Below are positions 3,799 to 53,660 of a DNA stretch of 64,000 bases, piece after piece. The DNA is taken from IMG/VR virus record IMGVR_UViG_3300032770_000009, positions 1 to 64,000 of that record; one strand, given 5' to 3'. The stretch's first letter is position 1. The number at the start of each line of letters is the position of its first letter. Both the position numbers and the translations under genes were made by a program. The notes under the pieces were generated by a model that was not told the DNA's origin, did no database searches, and worked only from the letters and a program-made list of their open reading frames with translations. The stretch is from a virus.

Positions 3799-3822
3799 GT
3801 TATACTCCTTATAATTTAATTG

Positions 3823-4410
3823 TTAGCCTGATGTCTGAGCACCACTGGTAAGATCTGGAGCGTCTGAAGCACCAATCTGAGATGCTAGAGAGAACTGGAA
3901 ACCCTCATGTGCTAGTACAAGTTGTGAAATAAATAACTGATTAGCACCCGCATCTAAATCTGACCACGCGATAGATGTTGGCCATGCATTATAGATAAGG
4001 AATTCAGCTTTGACCGCTACTGATGCTGCGGTTACAGGATGATCCAGAATCTGTATTAAAACAGACCAGCGGAAATCTTGTCCGTCTGTTGAATTACCTG
4101 TACCTTGAGCTACAGTAAATAACTGGCTAACCCAGTCGTAGTCAAAAGTTCCGTTATTAATAAGGGCTACACCACGTGATAGTGTAATAGGAGAGAAGTC
4201 CGCTTGACCAGGTAGCTTCTGTGTTGTGGTGTTATAGCCACCCTCCCTATATGCGATAACGTCAATTGTAAGGTTAAGACCTGAAACTGACATGAAGCCC
4301 ATAGGAATAGCCGCTTTGCCGCTTCCCGGTAAGAATGTAACCAAGAACTTGAAGTTTCTCAGCGGATCTGTAGCAAGGTGAGCTATAGATGAATTCTGTG
4401 TAACTGGCAT
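3823..4410 (-). CDS. Tail tube protein (T4 gp19-like)
   Basis: DPLRNFKFLV...YREGG...KLPG...ITLSRG...NAWP...SDLDA signature; follows the sheath gene. Confidence 0.9.
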   Translation of the reverse strand: MPVTQNSSIAHLATDPLRNFKFLVTFLPGSGKAAIPMGFMSVSGLNLTIDVIAYREGGYNTTTQKLPGQADFSPITLSRGVALINNGTFDYDWVSQLFTVAQGTGNSTDGQDFRWSVLIQILDHPVTAASVAVKAEFLIYNAWPTSIAWSDLDAGANQLFISQLVLAHEGFQFSLASQIGASDAPDLTSGAQTSG

Positions 4411-34377: not shown

Positions 34378-34929
34378 TTATTTTCCTCCATTAGCTAGAA
34401 TATTTAGTGCTTCGAACATTGCTATTTTTTCTCTCATCCATTTAACTTCTCTAGCATCTGCTAGTGCGTTATGCTTGCTGTCATTTTTTCTGCCGGGATT
34501 ATAACCTAGTCGTTCCATCTCTTGAGCGACATCGTTAGTCCGCTGAACAAACGGCATATCAATCATACGGCCGTAAAGCTGAGCTAGCACAACATGATCA
34601 TATGCGGCAAAGTAAGCCCACAGAGAAGGATTAGCGTATTCGACTACAAAATCTAGAACTTCCTTAGCAATCTCTGAACGGCTCTTAACATTAGCATAAT
34701 CAGGATGACTTTCATCCCATACCGGGAACTTTGGATCTATAGGCTGTGCTAGCGGAAGATAAGGAAGAACGTTAGCTCTAATCCACATATTCTTAGCGGC
34801 GTCCTTGATTAGTTCAAGGTCGTCAACCACAGCATAATATTCCTGATTGTCTTCTCTCACCATACCTATTGAAATAAGCCTTATAGTTTCACCGTTCTCA
34901 AGAAACTCCGTATCATAATATATTTCCAT
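34378..34929 (-). CDS. DEDD 3'-5' exoribonuclease (RNase AS / Rv2179c-like)
   Basis: YYDTEFLE...LISIGMV...AYDHVVLAQLYG...HNALADA. Confidence 0.85.
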   Translation of the reverse strand: MEIYYDTEFLENGETIRLISIGMVREDNQEYYAVVDDLELIKDAAKNMWIRANVLPYLPLAQPIDPKFPVWDESHPDYANVKSRSEIAKEVLDFVVEYANPSLWAYFAAYDHVVLAQLYGRMIDMPFVQRTNDVAQEMERLGYNPGRKNDSKHNALADAREVKWMREKIAMFEALNILANGGK

Positions 34930-34977: not shown

Positions 34978-35050
34978 TAGGTACTGACGGAATTGAACCG
35001 CCGACCTGTTGTTTGTAAGACAACCGCTCTCCCAACTGAGCTAAGCACCC
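34978..35050 (-). tRNA. tRNA-Val(TAC)
   Basis: Cloverleaf; anticodon loop CT-TAC-AA; T loop TTCAATT. Confidence 0.9.
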
Positions 35051-35051
35051 G

Positions 35052-35123
35052 TGATCCTAGAAGGAATCGAACCTTCACCGCCAGAATGAGAATCTGACAT
35101 CCTAGCCGTTAGACGATAGGACC
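35052..35123 (-). tRNA. tRNA-Glu(CTC)
   Basis: Cloverleaf; loop TT-CTC-AT. Confidence 0.88.
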
Positions 35124-38655: not shown

Positions 38656-40287
38656 CTAGACATCCCAGGGCCAACGACCATCTGAAGAATCTTCTATCAT
38701 TGGTATTAGTTTGAATGTAGCATCTGAAAGACCGCCAAGCTGGTACTTACGGTCCTTACCTACAGGAAGATCAGTAACTTTATAGCCTGCAAGATCGAAT
38801 GCATACACGTAAGCACTGCCAAAGTTGAAGTTAGCGACACCATAGCCATAGCCGTAGTAGCCATGGCCAGGGAAAGATTGTCCATCAGTGAAGATAAACA
38901 CTCTCTTGTGCTTATTCGGATCGAAGTGCTTCTGTAGTGCGTCTAGTGTTTGAGTACCATGTCCTACTTCACCGTTACGACGGTTAACTTCCTCCACTAT
39001 CTTAAGCACAGAAGTACCTGGCTTAACGGTTAGCTTCTTAGAAGAAGAAGCGAACATAACGATATCCACGTTACCTGGAGACTTAGCAGCCACAGCAGCA
39101 CCGAATAGAGCCGCTGCACCAGCACGTGACATCTTGCTCTTGTCAGATATAGGGGCATCCATTGAACCAGATGTGTCTACAAGCACCAAAGTTGAACTGT
39201 CGAACACCGGAATATTCTGAGTAGAATATTCTAGTGCCTGCTCAAGTGCCGCATGGTAGATAAGACTATTAGTCTCATTGAACGCAGAAAGGAATCTGAA
39301 CGGGAACTGTCTTGACTTCTCTATAACCTCCTTGTTGGTCAGTTTGTTGACAACAAGATCACGCACAGCAGTAGAAATACCTGCCTGCTCGAAATTGCGA
39401 AGGTTACGGATAAGAGCCATAATACCCATTGAAGGAATAACTGACTCCCACAACTTGTTCTTAGCCACTTTGGTACCGGCTAGAGAAAGAACATCTTCCC
39501 ATGTAAGACCAGCAGCCTTAACACGATCAGAGTCAAGAAGAGCCTTGACATCCTTAGCCGCATCAGCCCTCAATGACTGGTTAGCTGAAATCATAGGCAG
39601 CAAACTTGTGTCAGTATCAGAGCCATAACGCTTGCTGATTATAAACGAGAACAAAGCACCTTGCCATGGCTTAGAAGGCTTAACGTGAGTCAAATTCAAT
39701 ACATCAGAGAACTTAACTGAATATGCATCGGTGTTGTACTTAAGAACACTGTACTCGTTGTACAACTTAAGTACAGAATCAGAAATACCCCTCTTAACAG
39801 GCTTAGGTAGTTTACCAAACTTAGAAAGCCAGTAAGACACAAACTCGCCTGGTTCGTCAGCACGTGAAAGAACTTCAGAAATGATATGGCGATTCATGCC
39901 CTTCATGCCCATTGACGAAAGCAGCTCGTCTTCCGCTACAGCACCCTTGTTGTTAAGGCGAGCATACACAAAGTGAGCCGCACCTACTACAGACGCGGTA
40001 CGGATGTTAGCTTCTGATCTAAGCCAGATCAGAAACTTCATAGTCCATATAGGATCATAAACAGCTAGTGTCTCTACTAGATCGGTGAACCGCTTGTTAC
40101 GGTCATCACCCTTCTCATAGTAGGTCTTCTCACCGTAAAAGAGGTTTGCACCCAGACGGAAAAGCTCTGTCCTTTTGTCAGAAACAGCACCCTGACCGCC
40201 GCCGTAAGTACGAACACCCGGAACTACTGTTGAAGTCATTGGTGAGACTGGGCCACGGTTTACGGTCTTAGTGTTGATCTTTGACAT
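38656..40287 (-). CDS. rsr: Ro60/Rsr TROVE-domain RNA-binding protein with C-terminal vWA domain
   Basis: TROVE motifs RADEPGE, KLPKPVKRG, HVKP, LTWE, MGIMALIRNLRN, SRQFPFRFLSA; MIDAS motif DTSGSM and FTDGQ. SD GGAGG precedes ATG 40287. Confidence 0.93.
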   Translation of the reverse strand: MSKINTKTVNRGPVSPMTSTVVPGVRTYGGGQGAVSDKRTELFRLGANLFYGEKTYYEKGDDRNKRFTDLVETLAVYDPIWTMKFLIWLRSEANIRTASVVGAAHFVYARLNNKGAVAEDELLSSMGMKGMNRHIISEVLSRADEPGEFVSYWLSKFGKLPKPVKRGISDSVLKLYNEYSVLKYNTDAYSVKFSDVLNLTHVKPSKPWQGALFSFIISKRYGSDTDTSLLPMISANQSLRADAAKDVKALLDSDRVKAAGLTWEDVLSLAGTKVAKNKLWESVIPSMGIMALIRNLRNFEQAGISTAVRDLVVNKLTNKEVIEKSRQFPFRFLSAFNETNSLIYHAALEQALEYSTQNIPVFDSSTLVLVDTSGSMDAPISDKSKMSRAGAAALFGAAVAAKSPGNVDIVMFASSSKKLTVKPGTSVLKIVEEVNRRNGEVGHGTQTLDALQKHFDPNKHKRVFIFTDGQSFPGHGYYGYGYGVANFNFGSAYVYAFDLAGYKVTDLPVGKDRKYQLGGLSDATFKLIPMIEDSSDGRWPWDV

Positions 40288-40401: not shown

Positions 40402-40531
40402 TTACCTTGAGAATAAGATTAAGTCAGCATTTGGGATTATGAGTCCCAGTTCCCGCCATGGGAACCCGGGATGTGGCCCCGGGTAATAGAGTCGAACTAT
40501 TGAAGTATCTGACTAAAATGCACCAAAGTAA
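40402..40531 (-). ncRNA. Y-RNA-like unit 1 (T arm, looped acceptor, D arm, anticodon CAU)
   Basis: Closing stems plus GGUGC and UACUUC motifs; T loop UUCGACU. Confidence 0.8.
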
Positions 40532-40540
40532 GTTTATAAA

Positions 40541-40649
40541 TCCTGAGAATAATACATAAACAGCAAGGGAGCCATCCCATACGGCAAGGAATCGAACCTT
40601 AGCCCTGCGAATTGTTGGAGCAGAAGTAGCTGTTTATTTTGCACCAGGA
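40541..40649 (-). ncRNA. Y-RNA-like unit 2
   Basis: UCCUG/CAGGA and AUAAACAGC/GCUGUUUAU stems; T loop UUCGAUU. Confidence 0.8.
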
Positions 40650-40662
40650 ATATGAAGTTGTG

Positions 40663-40811
40663 TTGCCTAGAGTATACTGCGGTCACAGTATAGTTTCGTA
40701 AAGCTCTACCATTAAGCTACACCGGGAAGAAGCCCCGGCGTCAGGATTCGAACCTGAATCTCTTGATTAACAGTCAAATTGAAGTAACTGTGTACCTTTG
40801 CACCTAGGCAA
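40663..40811 (-). ncRNA. Y-RNA-like unit 3 (permuted tRNA-Asn-like, anticodon GUU)
   Basis: Anticodon arm, T arm, looped acceptor and D arm in that order inside the conserved stems. Confidence 0.82.
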
Positions 40812-40817
40812 AGCTTA

Positions 40818-40980
40818 TTAATCCAGAGTTTAGGGCGACGACAGATGGCTTGTTATTTTATTTCGCGTCTTTCCAGTTAAACGACAGCCGCATGATTGAG
40901 CGGCCGACAGGATTCGAACCTGTATGACGGTCTCCGCATGACATATTTTGAAGTAACTGTAGTCTTTGCACCTGGATTAA
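40818..40980 (-). ncRNA. Y-RNA-like unit 4 (classical YrlA-like: T arm, looped acceptor, D arm)
   Basis: UUAAUCCAG/CUGGAUUAA closing stem; T loop UUCGAAU. Confidence 0.82.
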
Positions 40981-40987
40981 GTTGTGT

Positions 40988-41114
40988 AGTCAAGAGTAAG
41001 AAACGATCTCGGAGTTTGAATCTTCAACAGGACTTGAACCTGTAACATTTTCTTTTAAAGAGAAACTATCTGCCATTGATATATGAAGTAACCGAAATCA
41101 AACGCACCTTGACT
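40988..41114 (-). ncRNA. Y-RNA-like unit 5 (unpermuted cloverleaf, anticodon UUA)
   Basis: AGUCAAG/CUUGACU stem; D arm, UUUCU-CUUUAAA-AGAAA arm, T arm. Confidence 0.78.
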
Positions 41115-41117
41115 TAG

Positions 41118-41190
41118 AGGTCCATGCCGGATTCGAACCGGATAAAGTGAGGTTGCAACTCACCGCCTAAGCCTTTTCAGCCACAGGACC
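41118..41190 (-). tRNA. tRNA-Cys(GCA)
   Basis: Cloverleaf; loop TT-GCA-AC; U discriminator. Confidence 0.88.
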
Positions 41191-41195
41191 ATTAA

Positions 41196-41348
41196 ATTCC
41201 TAGAGATTGAGCACCTTACGGGTTAAAATATTTTATTTCACCATCAGCAGTTTAAGAGCTGCTGACTAGGATTTGAACCTAGAATCTCAAAATTGATAGT
41301 TTTGTGTGTTTACCTTTGAAGTAGCCGTTAGGTAGTGCACCTAGGAAT
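41196..41348 (-). ncRNA. Y-RNA-like unit 6 (opened in the D loop, anticodon AUC)
   Basis: AUUCCUAG/CUAGGAAU stem; CAAAA-CUAUCAA-UUUUG arm; T arm; UCAGCAG/CUGCUGA looped acceptor. Confidence 0.78.
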
Positions 41349-41387
41349 GTCCACAACACTAGGAGGTACAGTATGGTGGAATTTACT

Positions 41388-41519
41388 GTTCAGAGAATAA
41401 GTTAGACTCAGTGACGATTTCAACCTCCACACCCGCGTGTGGCGCTCTCTAGCTTGAGCTATAACGCAAGGACTTAACCTTTGCTGCATTAGAAGTAACT
41501 GTGTCTTTTGCACCTGAAC
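41388..41519 (-). ncRNA. Y-RNA-like unit 7 (degenerate tRNA-like cargo)
   Basis: GUUCAG/CUGAAC stem, conserved motifs, D-arm-like UAGCUC..GAGC. Confidence 0.72.
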
Positions 41520-41522
41520 TAG

Positions 41523-41595
41523 TAGTGATAACTGGATTTGAACCAGTGACCGGCAGGATATGAATCTGCTGCTCTACCAACTGAGCTATACCACT
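41523..41595 (-). tRNA. tRNA-Met or Ile2 (CAT)
   Basis: Cloverleaf; loop TT-CAT-AT. Confidence 0.8.
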
Positions 41596-41635
41596 AGGTG
41601 TGGGACTTGCACCCACTAGTTATCCCAACTCTGTA

Positions 41636-41717
41636 AATCTGGAGTATAAATCGGCTACTGTGTCTTTTGGATAACTATAGCGTTGTTTGAAGTATCAGTG
41701 ACCTTCGCACCCAGATT
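41636..41717 (-). ncRNA. Y-RNA-like unit 8 (minimal)
   Basis: AAUCUGG/CCAGAUU stem; GGUGCGAAG and UACUUC motifs. Confidence 0.72.
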
Positions 41718-41725
41718 AAGATTAC

Positions 41726-41820
41726 TGTTCTAGAATATATAACGCATCACGGTCGGTTTCTACCATGGTGGCTTAAAAGGCTACTGTTTGAAGTAACCGT
41801 AATGCTTTGCACCTAGAACA
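41726..41820 (-). ncRNA. Y-RNA-like unit 9 (minimal, Lys-like CUUUUAA loop)
   Basis: UGUUCUAG/CUAGAACA stem; conserved motifs. Confidence 0.75.
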
Positions 41821-41823
41821 TAG

Positions 41824-41899
41824 ACGCGGGAGTGAGATTCGAACTCACGTAGAACGGCTTATGAGACCGTGCTGGAACCGAACTCCAGTCTATCCCGCA
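41824..41899 (-). tRNA. tRNA-Met(CAT)
   Basis: Cloverleaf; loop CT-CAT-AA. Confidence 0.85.
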
Positions 41900-41908
41900 G
41901 TGTTTAAA

Positions 41909-41990
41909 ACTCAGAGAATAATTTGAAAACAGCGCATTTACAGACCAATGTGAATAGTGTTTGAAGTAACTGTCTTCTTTGCACCTGAGT
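41909..41990 (-). ncRNA. Y-RNA-like unit 10 (minimal)
   Basis: ACUCAG/CUGAGU stem; conserved motifs. Confidence 0.75.
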
Positions 41991-42197: not shown

Positions 42198-42246
42198 ATC
42201 CTACCAGACCCGCGCCCCTTTGTCAAATCGGGGCGAATCGGACATT
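42198..42246 (-). promoter_or_regulatory. Promoter pointing into the tRNA / Y-RNA / Ro60 unit, with CGGACATT box
   Basis: TTGACA-N17-TAGGAT. Confidence 0.72.
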
Positions 42247-42403: not shown

Positions 42404-43417
42404 CTAATTAATAAGAAGAAGAGAAGTGCCGCCGATAAGTTTACGGTTCAAAGCAGTAGACTGCACAAAGATAGTATAGTTAGCGTACTGTGTACTAGAT
42501 GGATCTACATCTACTGTGTGATCAGGCAGGCCAAGCAACTGCCTAGCTTGAGGACCAGTGTAGATCTTCCCCCCGAAACCAATAGCGATATTCTTTTGCG
42601 GCTGAATTGTTTCCTTCTTAGTAAGTTGATAGTAAGCTTTACCGATAATAAGCTTCCTTCCAGTGTGGTCGTAGACGAATTCGTCTACTCTCTGGTCAAA
42701 AGGCACCGCTATAAGCTGGTGTGTTCCTGGTGACAAAGCATTAAGAGACAACTTAATGTCCGACTCTGTTACCCTATTAAGACTAAACAGGTTCTTACTG
42801 CTTCTGATACCCATAGACCTGTTAGTCATAAAGGTAGTAGAAGCTTGACGAACAATATGTCCTACTGTTTCAAGTCCCTTAGCAGATGTTGTATCCCAGA
42901 TTATTACGTTTTCTTTAGGGAATCCGTACTTTACAGCATAGTTAACACCTGTCTGGTTAGGTACGAAACAAGCATAAGACCAGTTTCCCTTGCCGTCAAG
43001 GACAGAAAAGTTTGACTTTAGAGTCAATGCACTGTGTGAAGAACTGTTTTCGTCACCATCAGTAATCACGTACATTAGGAAAGCGTGCTCACCGTATAGT
43101 GTAGCGGTCTTATCAAGGTCTTCCATTGCCTTAATGGTGGCGTCAATAAGAGCTGTACCACCAGAAGCACGGTACATTCCCTTAATAGACTGCATTCTCA
43201 GCACATCCATATCGTATGCAAGGCACTTGATATGATTGTATCCGGAAGAGAATGTGTATACAGTAACTCTTGTTTCCTGTTCCTGAGCTATAGATTGCTC
43301 AGCTAAGTGCTTTACTGTGTCATCTACTACACTAACTACAGTATTTGTTAAGTAATTCATGCTGCCTGATGCGTCTATAACTAAGACAACATGGTTAATA
43401 AAGTTTTTAAGTGCCAA
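42404..43417 (-). CDS. vWA-domain protein
   Basis: MIDAS motifs LVIDASGSM, GGTALIDA, VITDGDENSS. Confidence 0.85.
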   Translation of the reverse strand: MALKNFINHVVLVIDASGSMNYLTNTVVSVVDDTVKHLAEQSIAQEQETRVTVYTFSSGYNHIKCLAYDMDVLRMQSIKGMYRASGGTALIDATIKAMEDLDKTATLYGEHAFLMYVITDGDENSSSHSALTLKSNFSVLDGKGNWSYACFVPNQTGVNYAVKYGFPKENVIIWDTTSAKGLETVGHIVRQASTTFMTNRSMGIRSSKNLFSLNRVTESDIKLSLNALSPGTHQLIAVPFDQRVDEFVYDHTGRKLIIGKAYYQLTKKETIQPQKNIAIGFGGKIYTGPQARQLLGLPDHTVDVDPSSTQYANYTIFVQSTALNRKLIGGTSLLLIN

Positions 43418-46361: not shown

Positions 46362-46823
46362 CTAGGCTAGCAAGTAGTTCTCCGCTTGCTGTATATGAGA
46401 TCTTTGCAGTCCGTCAACATAATCAACAATTACCTGGTACCCGTTACTTTCGTACAAGTGATGCTGAAAGTCCCATTCGTCTTCTAGAGCTGCAAACTTG
46501 CGCCCATCAGCATATTTCTTTGCTGAGTAAGCCTTGTCTGCACCGACAGACGATGAAAACTTCCAAGGTTTCACCTGTATAAAGGGCAGTTCGGGCAATC
46601 CGACTTTTGGTGCTATATGTACTGGCGCTTGTGCACCCCACATAGTACACCATACAAGTTCAGAATCGGTTTTATCGGCTAGATCTAGCAGCCATGATCC
46701 GTGATTAGGATTCAAATGGACAGTAAAACCATTTATTTCGTATGTTACATGGTCTTTAGACGGACGGACGGGGTTAAGCACCCCGTCCACGTCTATCAGT
46801 ATCAAGTTACTTTTGATGGACAT
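46362..46823 (-). CDS. HAD-family phosphatase (RNA-repair-associated type)
   Basis: LIDVDGVLNP...ELVWCTMW...LGLPELP...ALEDE. Confidence 0.75.
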   Translation of the reverse strand: MSIKSNLILIDVDGVLNPVRPSKDHVTYEINGFTVHLNPNHGSWLLDLADKTDSELVWCTMWGAQAPVHIAPKVGLPELPFIQVKPWKFSSSVGADKAYSAKKYADGRKFAALEDEWDFQHHLYESNGYQVIVDYVDGLQRSHIQQAENYLLA

Positions 46824-47120
46824 AGTAGCCACCGTCAGCCCTGCGAGCACTCTTCGCCTTGCCACCGGAGTCTAGGAATTGCTGGTATTGTCTAGCAGTC
46901 ATGAATACTTCTCCAGAATGATCATGTCCCACATCGATAGGCTTACCGTGATTCTCAGCTTTGCCATTGCAGCCTTGCTTAATATGATCAATCTCTATAG
47001 GAAGACCACAGCATCCCCATGTTTTTCCAGACTTCTTCTTAAGACCGGCCGCCAAAGCCATTGCAGCCCTGAAAGCTGACTTGCTGATAGCCATTGTTTC
47101 CTCCTTGTTTGTTTGTGCTA

Positions 47121-47987: not shown

Positions 47988-48061
47988 TTGGGATAGAAGG
48001 AATTGAACCTTCTCAAAGTGTTTATAAGACACTTTCCGTCAAACCGTTCGGACCTACCCCA
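47988..48061 (-). tRNA. tRNA-Ile(TAT)
   Basis: AGTGT-CT-TAT-AA-ACACT arm; T loop TTCAATT. Confidence 0.82.
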
Positions 48062-48456
48062 ATGCTAAGAATCTCGTAATCCTCAGCCCAGTTGATATTG
48101 GGAGAAGCTTTGAAAGGATTTTTGACTCTTAAACGCATACTACCTGCTGGTGCGTCATCAACTGGAATCCAGTATACCTTGTTTAAGTCAGGCGAGTACA
48201 CGGCAAACAAATCAGCTTCACCTTTGTAACCCTTGTGGACATTTGTGAAAGGACTAATGCTAACAGTGTTGAATACAACACAGCCGTTATCAATTCTGCC
48301 AGTTTTGACTTGGATTCGTGTGAAGTTATTGTTTTCTTCAACAACCATATCATATCGCTGGTTGTCTCCAAACGGCAGCAGAACTGTTTTTCCCTGCTTG
48401 ATTAGCTCGGCTAAGACAACAGCTTCACTTATTTCTCCGACTGCTTTGCTATTCAC
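48022..48456 (-). CDS. PD-(D/E)xK homing-type endonuclease
   Basis: GEISE...PFGDNQRYDMV...RIQVKTG...ADLFAVY motif pattern. Confidence 0.85.
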   Translation of the reverse strand: MNSKAVGEISEAVVLAELIKQGKTVLLPFGDNQRYDMVVEENNNFTRIQVKTGRIDNGCVVFNTVSISPFTNVHKGYKGEADLFAVYSPDLNKVYWIPVDDAPAGSMRLRVKNPFKASPNINWAEDYEILSIGVGPNGLTESVL

Positions 48457-53195: not shown

Positions 53196-53660
53196 CTAAA
53201 AGTCGATCCATGGTGTGCCCACAGCGAAAGTAGGTATACCGAGGGACTGCCACATTCTCAGAACTTGCGGTCTGTCGTCTATAGCGAACTGAATATCGTA
53301 TTTCGGTTCTATATGATTACGGTAAATTTCTTCCTTCACTATGTAGTCTTTCCTGTAATCAGGCAGACCGTTAGCCAGCCAGTCAGGACGCATAAACAGC
53401 TCATTGTCGTAAGGCGTGAAAACATTCTTACCGAGCCATTCCTTTGTGTCGTCACGGCTTCTCTCCGGTCTTCCTGATACAAAGACGCAGGTAACGTTAT
53501 CTGGTTCTGAAGGAGACAGAATAAGACTAGTTACGACATGGATGACATGAGGATTAGGTTTGTCAAGCATAACTTTATCGTAATCGAGATGTCCCCTGAT
53601 GCCTTCGTGGTCCGCCACTGTGCCATCTATATCACATATGAATGCTTTTATTTTATTCAT
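53196..53660 (-). CDS. HAD 3'-phosphatase (T4 polynucleotide kinase phosphatase domain-like)
   Basis: CDIDGTVA, VSGR, LFMR, RKDYIVKEEIY, IDDRPQV. Confidence 0.88.
   Translation of the reverse strand: MNKIKAFICDIDGTVADHEGIRGHLDYDKVMLDKPNPHVIHVVTSLILSPSEPDNVTCVFVSGRPERSRDDTKEWLGKNVFTPYDNELFMRPDWLANGLPDYRKDYIVKEEIYRNHIEPKYDIQFAIDDRPQVLRMWQSLGIPTFAVGTPWIDF

What the first reader, a model, noticed from the sequence alone, without database searches (positions are those of the whole stretch)
40402..41348. The handle is grafted at a different point of the tRNA cloverleaf in each unit
Seen on the minus strand. Unit 1: T arm, acceptor closed by a loop containing CCA (CCCGGG-GCCACAU-CCCGGG), D arm, anticodon arm UGGGA-CUCAUAA-UCCCA; opened at the variable loop. 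Unit 3: anticodon arm with CUGUUAA (Asn), T arm, looped acceptor, D arm; opened between D and anticodon arms. Unit 4: T arm, acceptor, D arm with no anticodon arm (classical YrlA layout). Unit 5: ordinary D-anticodon-T order, joined through the acceptor end. Unit 6: apparently opened inside the D loop. Established: permuted tRNA genes with varied breakpoints in Cyanidioschyzon and some archaea mature through a terminal helix, cleavage and circularisation. Inference: these are either mimics exposing different tRNA surfaces, or true permuted pre-tRNAs whose ends are held by Ro60 for cutting and ligation, which would be new for a phage.
Basis: partly seen in the sequence, partly recalled or inferred. 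Interest (0 to 1): 0.88.

Follow-up and report, generated by a model that had tools for sequence, protein, structure and literature searches.

The report
Phage Y RNAs with reshuffled tRNA-like modules
Next to a phage copy of the RNA-binding protein Ro60 lie ten small RNA genes that share one protein-binding stem but carry tRNA look-alikes whose arms are arranged in a different order in each gene, so they are most likely tRNA mimics and not tRNAs in the making.

Summary
On the minus strand, 40403-41990, ten tandem Y-RNA-like units lie just upstream of a Ro60 (TROVE/vWA) gene. The finding covers six of them. Each unit has the same handle: a 6-7 bp terminal stem that differs in every unit, a GUGC(A/G)AAG / UAUUCU internal loop, a second stem, then UACUUC.

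The tRNA-like module on top of the handle joins it at different points:
- Unit 1: variable-loop position.
- Unit 3: between the D and anticodon arms.
- Unit 4: anticodon position (classical YrlA, plus an extra hairpin).
- Unit 5: acceptor end.
- Unit 6: probably inside the D loop, but this is ambiguous.

ARAGORN finds cloverleaves in the rejoined modules of units 1, 3 and 6. It finds none in 30 shuffles per unit or in 100 background segments. Orthologues in other phage contigs keep these layouts with compensatory changes. A 25-unit alignment of the unit-3 type is 94.5% paired, against 33-46% when partners are slid.

The tRNA-mimic reading is favoured. The cut-and-ligate maturation reading found no support here: no RtcB, Rnl2-type ligase or CCA-adding enzyme in the complete 116.5-kb genome, apparently a bacterial host, and CCA in few acceptor loops.

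YrlA was already likened to a permuted tRNA in print, and its optional "V" hairpin may be the same element as the anticodon-like arm. I class this as a new variant of a known kind.

Other first-stage notes of this scan describe the same array; I saw only their headline texts.

The parts
38656..40287 (-). Ro60 / Rsr gene (543 aa from the ATG; TROVE + vWA domains), directly downstream of the array
   Evidence: Pfam TROVE 1.2e-20 and VWA_2 6.6e-8. tblastn gives 36-40% identity to 'Ro-like RNA binding protein' of Streptomyces and Gordonia phages.
40403..40530 (-). Handle, then T arm (40485-40501), acceptor hairpin with G-CCA in the loop (40464-40484), D-like arm (40451-40463), anticodon-like arm CUCAUAA (40432-40448). 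The handle leaves at the variable-loop position.
   Evidence: Fold; arm coordinates. Rejoined form is called tRNA-Met(cat) in 157 variants. Orthologue L212:403-528 keeps all arms with compensatory changes.
40540..40650 (-). Y9 = unit 2. Handle, then a hairpin with loop UCCAACAAUUC (40605-40623), an extended T arm (40583-40604) and a small hairpin (40567-40578).
   Evidence: A near-identical module lies in L212 at 283-395. The same loop word occurs in L165, L198 and L211.
40664..40810 (-). Y8 = unit 3. Handle, then anticodon-like arm CUGUUAA (40762-40778), 5-nt spacer, T arm (40742-40756), acceptor hairpin (40719-40741), D arm (40702-40718). The handle enters between the D and anticodon arms.
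   Evidence: Rfam YrlA 26.9 bits at 40700-40764 and tRNA 25.6 bits at 40740-40795. Rejoined form is called tRNA-Asn(gtt) in 134 variants. The class is supported by the 25-unit alignment. The unconstrained fold differs.
40820..40978 (-). Y7 = unit 4. Handle, then a short hairpin (40924-40939), T arm (40907-40923), 7-bp acceptor hairpin (40885-40906), D arm (40866-40883). This is the classical YrlA layout.
   Evidence: ARAGORN on rejoined forms gives no consistent anticodon.
40988..41114 (-). Y6 = unit 5. Handle, then a complete cloverleaf in normal order with anticodon UUA. The 5-bp acceptor is made with the conserved ACUUC word.
   Evidence: ARAGORN tRNA(tta) at 41018-41090. Rfam tRNA 50.8 bits, model positions 3-68. 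Drawing. Analogue L134:4110-4250 has a tRNA of 63.4 bits inside a handle.
41197..41347 (-). Y5 = unit 6. Handle, then a flank with GGUA, anticodon-like arm CUAUCAA (41288-41304), T arm (41266-41282), acceptor hairpin (41244-41265), then either half of a D arm or a local A/U hairpin (41224-41240).
   Evidence: Rejoined form is called tRNA-Asp(atc) in 172 variants. Orthologue L134:3818-3971.
41388..41519 (-). Y4 (outside the finding). Handle, then a long-looped hairpin, D arm (41444-41459) and a 6-bp stem with a tetraloop (41427-41442). It has no T arm.
41636..41717 (-). Y3. Short unit (82 nt): handle plus a small insert.
41727..41819 (-). Y2. Short unit (93 nt).
41913..41990 (-). Y1. Short unit (78 nt) with a 6-bp terminal stem.
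   Evidence: Sequence printed. The stem was read by eye. z-score only -0.27.
41119..41190 (-). tRNA-Cys-like gene in the spacer between Y5 and Y6.
   Evidence: ARAGORN. Rfam tRNA 34.8 bits.
41522..41595 (-). tRNA-Met(CAU) in the spacer between Y3 and Y4.
   Evidence: ARAGORN. Rfam tRNA 65.6 bits.
41823..41899 (-). tRNA-Met(CAU)-like gene in the spacer between Y1 and Y2.
   Evidence: ARAGORN only. Rfam gives only tRNA-Sec at 24.4 bits, below threshold.

Best explanation
This is a tandem array of ten YrlA-type Y RNA genes, probably co-transcribed with interspersed tRNAs and the downstream Ro60 gene and then cut into separate RNAs of about 80-160 nt.

Each RNA has a constant handle: a terminal stem made of its own two ends, a conserved internal loop (5' GUGC(A/G)AAG, 3' UAUUCU), a second stem, and the word (Y)UACUUC. 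The phage Ro60 ring most likely binds this handle.

On top of the handle sits an exchangeable tRNA-derived module. It is a circular permutation of the cloverleaf with the acceptor closed by a loop, and the handle enters at a different exposed site in different units: the variable loop, the 26/27 hinge, the anticodon position, the acceptor end, and perhaps the D loop.

The RNAs act as tRNA mimics that tether Ro60, and whatever Ro60 recruits (such as host PNPase), to tRNA-binding factors. They are not matured into translating tRNAs.

Shown here: the anatomy, its conservation and covariation, and the link to the Ro60 gene. Inferred, not tested: Ro60 binding, co-transcription and processing, the L-shaped fold, and the function.
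For: Clustering. The motif GGTGC-N-ACTTC occurs 14 times in the window against 2.1 expected; 10 of these cluster at 40502-41985 on the minus strand. They are the only cluster in the 116.5-kb genome.

Terminal stem. It is present in all ten units with a different sequence in each. 8 of 10 have a perfect 6-mer partner, against a control mean of 0.60.

Link to Ro60 elsewhere. The same motif and unit anatomy occur beside Ro60 genes in other phage and metagenome contigs. There are 303 candidate units in 106 of 161 sources, and 221 in 84 sources after filtering.

Covariation. The 25-unit alignment of the unit-3 type has 94.5% of cells paired, against 71.2% in shuffles (0 of 500 reach the observed value) and 32.8-46.4% when partners are slid. 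26 of 36 pairs show changes on both sides, including both handle stems, all 7 acceptor pairs and the two inner pairs of the anticodon-like arm.

Permuted cloverleaves. ARAGORN finds them, and none in controls.

Orthologues.
- L212 keeps the syntenic order unit 3-like, unit 2-like, unit 1-like, then Ro60.
- L212:403-528 keeps every arm of unit 1, with double changes in the terminal stem, acceptor, D-like and anticodon-like stems and an identical CUCAUAA loop.

Literature.
- PMC4201824 (section 6 and passages): the GNCGAAN0-1G motif, YUAY before the module, T/acceptor/D arms with an optional upstream hairpin, and two Y RNAs processed from one precursor in M. smegmatis.
- PMC12135203 (passages): a phage Ro60 binds phage-encoded Y-like RNAs and host PNPase.

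Folding energy. z-scores run from -1.4 to -4.5 for 9 of 10 units.
Against: - Rfam's YrlA model does not recognise any unit at its gathering score. The best hit is 26.9 bits against 69, and it covers the module only. There were no YrlA hits in 12 related loci.
- The published 5' motif is GNCGAA. Most window units read GUGCAAAG, and only one unit has CGAAG.
- Unit 3's free-energy minimum is a different fold, 5.2 kcal/mol better than the tRNA-like one, and the tRNA-like pairs have probability 0.01 or less.
- Unit Y1 has z = -0.27.
- There are no expression or end-mapping data of any kind, and nothing here shows Ro60 binding.
- The D-like arm of unit 1 (5-nt loop) and the D position of unit 6 are not canonical, so an L-shaped fold is an assumption.
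- 7 of 89 looped acceptors, including unit 1, carry N-CCA straight after the stem. That is more than the roughly 1.6% expected and hints that some are opened like real pre-tRNAs.
Confidence: 0.72

Rival explanations
1. Opened but not ligated. Host RNase P cuts the looped acceptor of units that have a 7-bp acceptor stem, the 3' end is trimmed or given CCA, and the result is a two-piece, handle-bridged tRNA-like molecule that stays on Ro60. It may even be charged. This is a maturation step added to the Y RNA reading, as shown for M. smegmatis YrlA.
For: PMC4201824 (passages): M. smegmatis YrlA with a 7-bp acceptor is cut by RNase P in vitro and in vivo and gains CCA. Units 1, 4 and 6 have 7-bp acceptor hairpins and unit 3 has 8 bp. 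Unit 1 encodes G-CCA directly after the 3' acceptor strand. 7 of 89 looped acceptors across loci do the same, against about 1.6% expected.
Against: The orthologue of unit 1 lacks CCA (loop ACUUCAU). Most loops (82 of 89) have no CCA. There are no RNA data. The phage has no CCA-adding enzyme of its own, though a host would.
Confidence: 0.15
2. True permuted pre-tRNAs. The handle holds the ends for excision and ligation, the acceptor loop is then opened, and ordinary translating tRNAs result (Met, Asn, Asp-like).
For: Rejoined modules of units 1, 3 and 6 pass ARAGORN. Genes with an RNA-repair flavour lie in the same tRNA cluster: HAD_PNKP phosphatase, HAD_SAK_2 and an Rv2179c-like exoribonuclease. 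The idea was raised for YrlA in 10.1101/312249 (passages).
Against: - No RtcB, Rnl2-type ligase or CCA-adding enzyme in the complete genome.
- The host lineage appears bacterial, and no splicing endonuclease is reported in bacteria (10.1101/312249).
- The phage already has ordinary tRNA-Asn, tRNA-Asp and two tRNA-Met genes.
- Anticodon AUC in unit 6 and the reduced D arms are poor tRNA features.
- The anticodon-like loop of unit 3 is not kept in the L212 orthologue.
- Modules are not copies of the phage's own tRNAs.
Confidence: 0.05
3. The graft point varies less than it seems. The hairpin 5' of the T arm in units 3 and 6 is the optional 'V' (variable-arm) stem-loop already described for YrlA. 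On that reading units 3, 4 and 6 all have the classical layout with the handle in the anticodon position, and only units 1 and 5 differ.
For: [quoted passage not shown] Our UUAC of UUACUUC sits exactly there. The secondary structure is the same; only the homology assignment differs.
Against: In the 25-unit alignment the loop columns (50-56) carry no gaps, so it is 7 nt in all 25. The U at position 33 is kept in at least 90% and an A at position 38 in all. The stem is 5 bp. It is followed by a 5-nt spacer of consensus AGGUC before the T stem, as after a real anticodon arm; a class II variable arm is followed by 1-2 nt (that last figure is recalled). No long-range anticodon-stem pairs remain between this hairpin and the strand after the D arm. 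I could not see the figures or supplements of PMC4201824.
Confidence: 0.2
4. Non-functional debris of a decaying tRNA array, separated by a repeated processing or promoter element.
For: The array lies inside a 33-tRNA cluster. Several units (Y1-Y3) have no tRNA arms. Tandem tRNAs are known to give false YrlA hits (PMC4201824; also seen at 34998-35109).
Against: Compensatory changes appear in every helix across 25 units and in pairwise orthologues. The link to Ro60 genes holds across 84 or more sources. Promoter-like sites are not enriched: 10 found against 9.0 expected.
Confidence: 0.03

Closest known systems
YrlA (Y RNA-like A; Rfam RF02553) of bacteria and mycobacteriophages
   Same: It is encoded next to Ro60/rsr. 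The two RNA ends pair into a stem. A conserved purine-rich 5' motif sits in an internal loop, and YUAY precedes the module. The tRNA-like domain has a T arm, a closed acceptor hairpin and a D arm (unit 4 is this layout). More than one Y RNA per locus, processed from one precursor, is known. It has been described as resembling a circularly permuted tRNA.
   Different: No unit reaches the Rfam threshold. The motif reads GUGC(A/G)AAG, not GNCGAA. There are ten units in one array. Some modules carry a full anticodon-like arm (units 1, 3, 5, 6), whereas published YrlA 'lacks the anticodon loop' (10.1101/312249). The handle is attached at the variable loop (unit 1), the acceptor end (unit 5) or possibly the D loop (unit 6), and not only at the anticodon position.
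D. radiodurans Yrn1
   Same: It is a Ro60-bound Y RNA with a T-like arm. PMC4201824 states that the orientation of its T and D arms relative to the RNA ends differs from YrlA, and that the hairpin between them takes the anticodon-arm position. So variation of the graft point between Y RNA families is already documented.
   Different: That variation is between species and families. Here it occurs among paralogues in one array that share one handle. No sequence comparison with Yrn1 was made here.
Circularly permuted tRNA genes of Cyanidioschyzon merolae and some archaea
   Same: The 3' half precedes the 5' half, the acceptor is closed by a loop, breakpoints vary, and the rejoined halves pass a tRNA finder.
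   Different: Those are matured by a splicing endonuclease and a ligase into the cell's only copy of that tRNA. Here the host appears bacterial, no ligase gene was found in the phage, ordinary tRNAs for the same anticodons are present, and the linking helix is a conserved Ro60-type handle. I did not test for a bulge-helix-bulge motif.
Thermus phage phiLo Ro60 with Yrl1/Yrl2
   Same: A phage Ro60 with Y-like RNAs encoded upstream. The anatomy is stem, bulge with a CGAA motif, stem. Binding to the phage Ro60 and to host PNPase was shown in vitro (PMC12135203, passages).
   Different: That paper's text does not mention a tRNA-like domain ('tRNA-like' occurs 0 times). There are two RNAs, not ten. 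phiLo Ro60 is only 26% identical to this one.

Membership tests
YrlA-type Y RNA | Encoded within a few kb of a Ro60/TROVE gene, on the same strand | tested here: met
   The array ends 116 nt upstream of the Ro60 start codon. The same link is seen in 84 sources after filtering.
YrlA-type Y RNA | 5' and 3' ends pair into a stem, with a conserved 5' motif (GNCGAAN0-1G) in a bulge or internal loop | tested here: inconclusive
   The stem is present in 10 of 10 units. The motif is GUGC(A/G)AAG: related to the published pattern but not a literal match. Relatives read GGUGCGAAG or GGUGCGCAG.
YrlA-type Y RNA | YUAY word before the tRNA-like domain | tested here: met
   UUAC, AUAC or CUAC precede UUC in all 10 junctions.
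YrlA-type Y RNA | Module order T arm, closed acceptor hairpin, D arm, with no anticodon loop | tested here: not met
   Met only by unit 4. Units 1, 3, 5 and 6 carry 7-nt anticodon-like loops. Units Y1-Y4 and Y9 lack one or more arms.
YrlA-type Y RNA | Reaches the Rfam RF02553 gathering score (69 bits) | tested here: not met
   Best hit 26.9 bits at 40700-40764, model positions 24-84 only.
YrlA-type Y RNA | Bound by Ro60 in vivo; carries tRNA modifications (pseudouridine 55, dihydrouridine) | not testable with these tools
   No RNA run holds this sequence.
Permuted pre-tRNA | Rejoined halves form a canonical cloverleaf | tested here: met
   Met for units 1, 3 and 6 (ARAGORN; controls 0 of 30 per unit and 0 of 100). 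D arms are reduced in units 1 and 6.
Permuted pre-tRNA | Ligase and processing enzymes are available; CCA is encoded or added | tested here: not met
   No RtcB, RNA_ligase (PF09414) or PolyA_pol family in the phage genome. The Rnl1 search was uninformative. Host enzymes are unknown.
Permuted pre-tRNA | A mature re-ordered tRNA or a circular intermediate exists | not testable with these tools
   No RNA data.
tRNA (RF00005), unit 5 | Full cloverleaf with a 7-bp acceptor and free ends | tested here: not met
   50.8 bits, but model positions 3-68 only. Pairs 1:72 and 2:71 are mismatched, and the strands continue into the handle stems.

The most novel reading that the evidence does not exclude
The array is a panel of Ro60-tethered tRNA decoys or sensors. 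Each unit would display a different tRNA face or anticodon loop (CAU, GUU, AUC, UUA here; GUU, GCU, UGG, UUU recur in other phages) to host tRNA-targeting defence nucleases or other tRNA-binding factors. Alternatively, some units (unit 1, with its encoded G-CCA) are opened by RNase P into two-piece 'split' tRNAs bridged by the Ro60 handle, which would be the first split or permuted tRNAs in a bacterial virus.
Probability: 0.15. Interest if true: 0.9.

Novelty: new variant of a known kind. Interest (0 to 1): 0.66.

Why it matters
Y RNAs are thought to work as tethers: one end holds Ro60 and the other recruits a partner. What the tRNA-like end of bacterial Y RNAs binds is still an open question. 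This array is a natural series in which one handle carries ten different modules, some with full anticodon arms, each attached through a different site of the cloverleaf. That argues the module is a swappable cargo and gives a set of variants with which to look for partners.

The layout with an anticodon-like arm is common beside Ro60 genes in other phage and metagenome contigs. My rule-based census flagged 29 of the 101 filtered units that have a T arm, one of which is known to be misfiled. It escapes the Rfam YrlA model. In at least one cultured phage (Streptomyces phage LuckySocke) such a unit is annotated as tRNA-Ser(gct). Phage tRNA counts may therefore be inflated by Y RNA modules.

Cultured relatives on Streptomyces make the question open to experiment.

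Tried and rejected
1. My first model: the GGTGC...ACTTC junction is a handle made from the ACTTC side of one junction and the GGTGC side of the next, or else a self-contained local hairpin. A duplex-energy test of the flanks showed no excess for either partner choice (85 and 114 comparisons, Wilcoxon p = 0.78 and 0.91). An apical-stem test showed only two nearly invariant pairs (96 and 91 of 115), with the third and fourth pairs at chance (48 of 114 and 34 of 113). Both models were dropped once the true terminal stem was seen.

Single-protein scans of viral and metagenome contigs found nothing. Scans with an alignment gave relatives at 35-52% identity.

3. DNA pattern scans of viral contigs gave only single, chance-like matches.

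4. blastn of the array against phage records found only tRNA-like pieces.

5. Sequencing runs: no RNA holder listed. One DNA run, possibly the source sample, holds the stretch.

6. The promoter and terminator scan was at chance level.

7. The rule-based census of layouts is rough. It misfiled window unit 5 as 'AC|V|T|hairpin' and window unit 1 as 'YrlA layout', so its counts (120 no T arm, 53 YrlA layout, 29 with an upstream anticodon-like arm, 12 T arm only, 6 tRNA order, 1 variable-loop type, of 221) are approximate. The ARAGORN census of all 221 units over-calls, because pieces of the handle can imitate an anticodon arm across the artificial join. I do not rely on it beyond the window units.

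8. Of the 29 units flagged as having an upstream anticodon-like arm, I aligned 25. I left out window unit 5 (misfiled) and L177:1641, L200:4848 and L211:7587 (112-113 nt, short).

9. MAFFT misaligned the modules of unit 6 and its L134 orthologue. That comparison rests on my reading of the printed sequences.

10. Papers PMC10870794 and PMC6047535 are not held. They may already show anticodon-like hairpins.

11. Searches for prior print: searches found no paper that joins permuted tRNA with phage or Ro60 beyond those cited.

12. Script errors were bugs and were re-run.
Full report
What is there. The window belongs to a 116,568-base virus record rated complete. It is a tailed phage with a tail sheath, portal and terminase. 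Its terminase is about 51% identical to those of BRock-like Streptomyces phages of 112-116 kb. On the minus strand a Ro60 gene (38656-40287; TROVE and vWA domains) lies inside a cluster of 33 ARAGORN-called tRNA genes. Directly upstream of it, the word GGTGC-N13/14-TACTTC occurs ten times between 40502 and 41985. The whole window has 14 matches against 2.1 expected, and there is no other cluster in the genome.

Finding the real unit. I first took this word for a helix between neighbouring units or for a local hairpin. Both ideas failed their tests. Reading related loci showed a second conserved word, CUUGAUCUCGGG in G+C-rich relatives and UUAUUCU here, that always precedes the reverse complement of the 7 nt ending in the first G of GGTGC.

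In the window every unit has such a terminal stem of 6-7 bp, with a different sequence in each. 8 of 10 units have a perfect 6-mer partner and 6 of 10 a 7-mer. In 50 shifted control registers the means were 0.60 and 0.14.

The unit therefore reads: stem 1, then GUGC(A/G)AAG, then stem 2 (variable, ending ...ACAG), then UUACUUC, then the module, then stem 2', then UAUUCU, then stem 1'. This is the polarity and anatomy of YrlA as printed by Rfam's consensus and described in PMC4201824 (5' motif GNCGAAN0-1G, YUAY before the module; section 6 read).

Three tRNA genes (41823-41899, 41522-41595, 41119-41190) sit in the spacers between units, not inside them.

The modules.
- Unit 1 (40403-40530): T arm, 7-bp acceptor hairpin with loop G-CCA-CAU, D-like arm (5-nt loop), then an arm with the loop CUCAUAA. 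The handle therefore leaves where a variable arm would.
- Unit 3 (40664-40810): arm with loop CUGUUAA, 5-nt spacer, T arm, acceptor hairpin, D arm. The handle sits between the D arm and the anticodon-like arm.
- Unit 4 (40820-40978): short hairpin, T arm, acceptor, D arm. This is the classical YrlA layout.
- Unit 5 (40988-41114): a whole cloverleaf in normal order with anticodon UUA (ARAGORN; Rfam tRNA 50.8 bits over model positions 3-68). Its 5-bp acceptor uses the constant ACUUC and runs on into the handle.
- Unit 6 (41197-41347): arm with loop CUAUCAA, T arm, acceptor hairpin. The D position is either a D stem split across the handle (GUGA/ACAC, 3 of 4 pairs, with GGUA kept just 3' of UACUUC) or a local A/U hairpin.
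- Outside the finding: unit Y4 has an acceptor-like hairpin, a good D arm and a tetraloop-capped stem but no T arm. Y9 has a hairpin with loop UCCAACAAUUC plus a T arm. Y1-Y3 are little more than the handle.

Is it more than chance? I rejoined each module in silico, as a head-to-tail duplication with a grid of end trimmings, and ran ARAGORN.
- Unit 1 gave tRNA-Met(cat) in 157 variants.
- Unit 3 gave tRNA-Asn(gtt) in 134 variants.
- Unit 6 gave tRNA-Asp(atc) in 172 variants.
- All of these calls span the artificial join.
- Unit 5 is found unpermuted.
- Unit 4 gives no consistent call, and Y1-Y4 give none.
- The same procedure gave nothing in 30 shuffles of each of five units, and nothing in 100 background segments of the window.

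Folding-energy z-scores are -1.4 to -4.5 for nine units and -0.27 for Y1. Against this, unit 3's unconstrained minimum is another fold, 5.2 kcal/mol better than the tRNA-like one.

Relatives. Alignment-based scans gave 160 loci at 35-52% identity. A script found 303 candidate units in 106 of the 161 sources, and 221 in 84 after requiring the 3' word and a sensible length. None of 12 loci scanned, nor the window, gives an Rfam YrlA hit at threshold.

A rule-based census (approximate, with known misfilings) found that about 100 units have a T arm. About half of those have the classical layout. 29 have a 5-bp/7-nt-loop arm placed 3-6 nt upstream of the T arm; such arms occur at about 1% of positions overall. 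The recurrent loops are CUGUUAA (8) and CUGCUAA (5).

I aligned 25 of those 29. For a structure with both handle stems, the anticodon-like arm, and the T, acceptor and D arms:
- 94.5% of cells pair, against 71.2% in shuffles (0 of 500 reach it) and 32.8-46.4% when partners are slid.
- 26 of 36 pairs change on both sides.
- The loop columns (50-56) carry no gaps, so the loop is 7 nt in all 25. The U at the position of U33 is kept in at least 90% and an A at position 38 in all. The spacer to the T stem is 5 nt, consensus AGGUC.

Locus L212 (Ro60 52% identical) holds the same order of units before its Ro60 gene.
- Its last unit (403-528) is the orthologue of unit 1. It has the same four arms and the same CUCAUAA loop, with double changes in the terminal stem, acceptor, D-like and anticodon-like stems, but a loop without CCA.
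- These two are the only variable-loop-type units among the 303.
- Its unit at 283-395 is nearly identical in module to unit 2.
- Its unit 3 counterpart has a hairpin in the same place but with an 8-nt, non-anticodon loop (my reading).

L134 (Ro60 46% identical, a 116-kb contig) has two relevant units.
- One is an analogue of unit 5: a tRNA of 63.4 bits inside a handle.
- The other is an orthologue of unit 6 (3818-3971). There the split D stem would be GUUU/AAAC (4 of 4) and GGUA is kept. A local hairpin is again possible.

So unit 6's 'opened in the D loop' is supported by one compensatory change and remains open.

How it most likely works. By homology of anatomy and position, these are Y RNAs bound by the phage Ro60 through the stem-loop-stem handle. 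They are probably cut from a long transcript together with the interspersed tRNAs. No minus-strand terminator-like site lies in the array, and promoter-like sites are at chance level. In M. smegmatis two Y RNAs come from one precursor (PMC4201824). The modules are tRNA mimics.

The handle enters at sites that I recall as exposed and tolerant of insertions in real tRNAs: the variable loop, the 26/27 hinge, the variable pockets of the D loop, the anticodon loop and the acceptor end. The constant UACUUC precedes whichever arm comes first. This argues for a fixed scaffold with exchangeable cargo.

What the cargo binds is unknown. For a phage Ro60, binding of its Y-like RNAs and of host PNPase has been shown in vitro (PMC12135203, passages).

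The maturation model.
- The complete genome has no RtcB, Rnl2-type ligase or PolyA_pol/CCA enzyme. The Rnl1 search had a silent control.
- The phage already encodes ordinary tRNAs for Asn, Asp and Met, and the modules are not copies of them.
- I rate full maturation at 0.05.

A partial step, RNase P opening of 7-bp acceptor hairpins as shown for M. smegmatis YrlA, is plausible for some units. N-CCA follows the stem in 7 of 89 looped acceptors, including unit 1.

Compared with what is known. YrlA as a circularly permuted tRNA look-alike, its possible processing, several Y RNAs per locus, phage Ro60 and Y RNAs, and a different arm orientation in Yrn1 are all in print (PMC4201824; 10.1101/312249; PMC12135203).

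The hairpin upstream of the T arm may be the element that PMC4201824 calls 'V'. If so, units 3, 4 and 6 share one graft point by that naming. I argue from loop size, the U33/A38 conservation and the 5-nt AGGUC spacer that it is an anticodon-arm mimic, but I could not see that paper's figures or supplements.

Three things I did not find in print:
- a variable-loop graft carrying all four arms (unit 1);
- a whole cloverleaf caged in a handle (unit 5 and its analogues);
- ten different modules on one handle in a single array.

A practical by-product: in Streptomyces phage LuckySocke, the unit next to Ro60 (L302 2769-2914) is annotated, and called by ARAGORN, as tRNA-Ser(gct).

Verdict. Of the two interpretations, the mimic half is supported and the maturation half is not. 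This is a new variant of a known kind, of real interest to people who work on Ro60 and Y RNAs and on phage tRNAs, and it can be tested in cultured relatives.

Noticed in passing
L302 2769-2914 (Streptomyces phage LuckySocke, OR725497.1): A Y-RNA-like unit directly upstream of the Ro-like gene is annotated in GenBank, and called by ARAGORN, as tRNA-Ser(gct) (2774-2847). The call starts inside the handle. This phage's handles read GATGCG and not GGTGCG, so my regular expression missed them. Phage tRNA counts may include such units.
   Followed up: partly
window 34378-34929, 46362-46865, 53196-53660, 48022-48456 (all minus strand): Four genes lie scattered among the tRNA genes: an Rv2179c-like 3'-5' exoribonuclease, a HAD_SAK_2 'RNA repair' HAD protein, a PNKP-type phosphatase domain without a recognised kinase, and a PD-(D/E)XK endonuclease. 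No RNA ligase was found in the genome.
   Followed up: partly
window 42404-43417 (-): A second vWA-domain protein (337 aa) is encoded just upstream of the array and tRNA-Glu.
   Followed up: no
window 40605-40623 (-); L212 ~306-324; L165:9396, L198:9656, L211:7771 units: Five units share a hairpin loop N-CCAACAAU. In L165 and L211 the hairpin is followed by D, anticodon and T arms, giving an acceptor-first layout in which the handle would enter between the T arm and the acceptor. Window unit 2 looks like a reduced form of this.
   Followed up: partly
window spacers after units, e.g. 40651-40663 and 40979-40987 (-); G+C-rich relatives: A conserved word, ACAACUU(C/A)A, follows the 3' end of many units. 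It may be a processing or 3'-end signal.
   Followed up: no
window 40664-40810 (-): Unit 3 can fold into an alternative structure in which each strand of stem 2 forms its own local hairpin. This fold is 5.2 kcal/mol more stable than the tRNA-like fold. It could be chance or a switch.
   Followed up: partly
window 41571-41618 (-): A lone T-arm-like hairpin lies in the spacer just before tRNA-Met. It gives a weak YrlA-model hit of 21.9 bits when combined with the tRNA's own acceptor and D arm.
   Followed up: no
L301 (Mycobacterium phage Myrna, NC_011273.1 94710-94781): Myrna's tRNA array holds an annotated 'tRNA Sup TTA'. This is the same unusual anticodon as window unit 5, but there it is a free-standing tRNA gene.
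   Followed up: no
L300 (Gordonia phage Rabbitrun, NC_060133.1 56414-57149): Four very short 'hypothetical protein' genes (27-93 codons) are annotated in the stretch upstream of the Ro-like gene, where Y RNA units would be expected.
   Followed up: no
window 42198-42226 (-): The best promoter-like site in the region (TTGACA-17-TAGGAT with an upstream TG) lies just upstream of tRNA-Glu and the array. It is a consensus match only.
   Followed up: no
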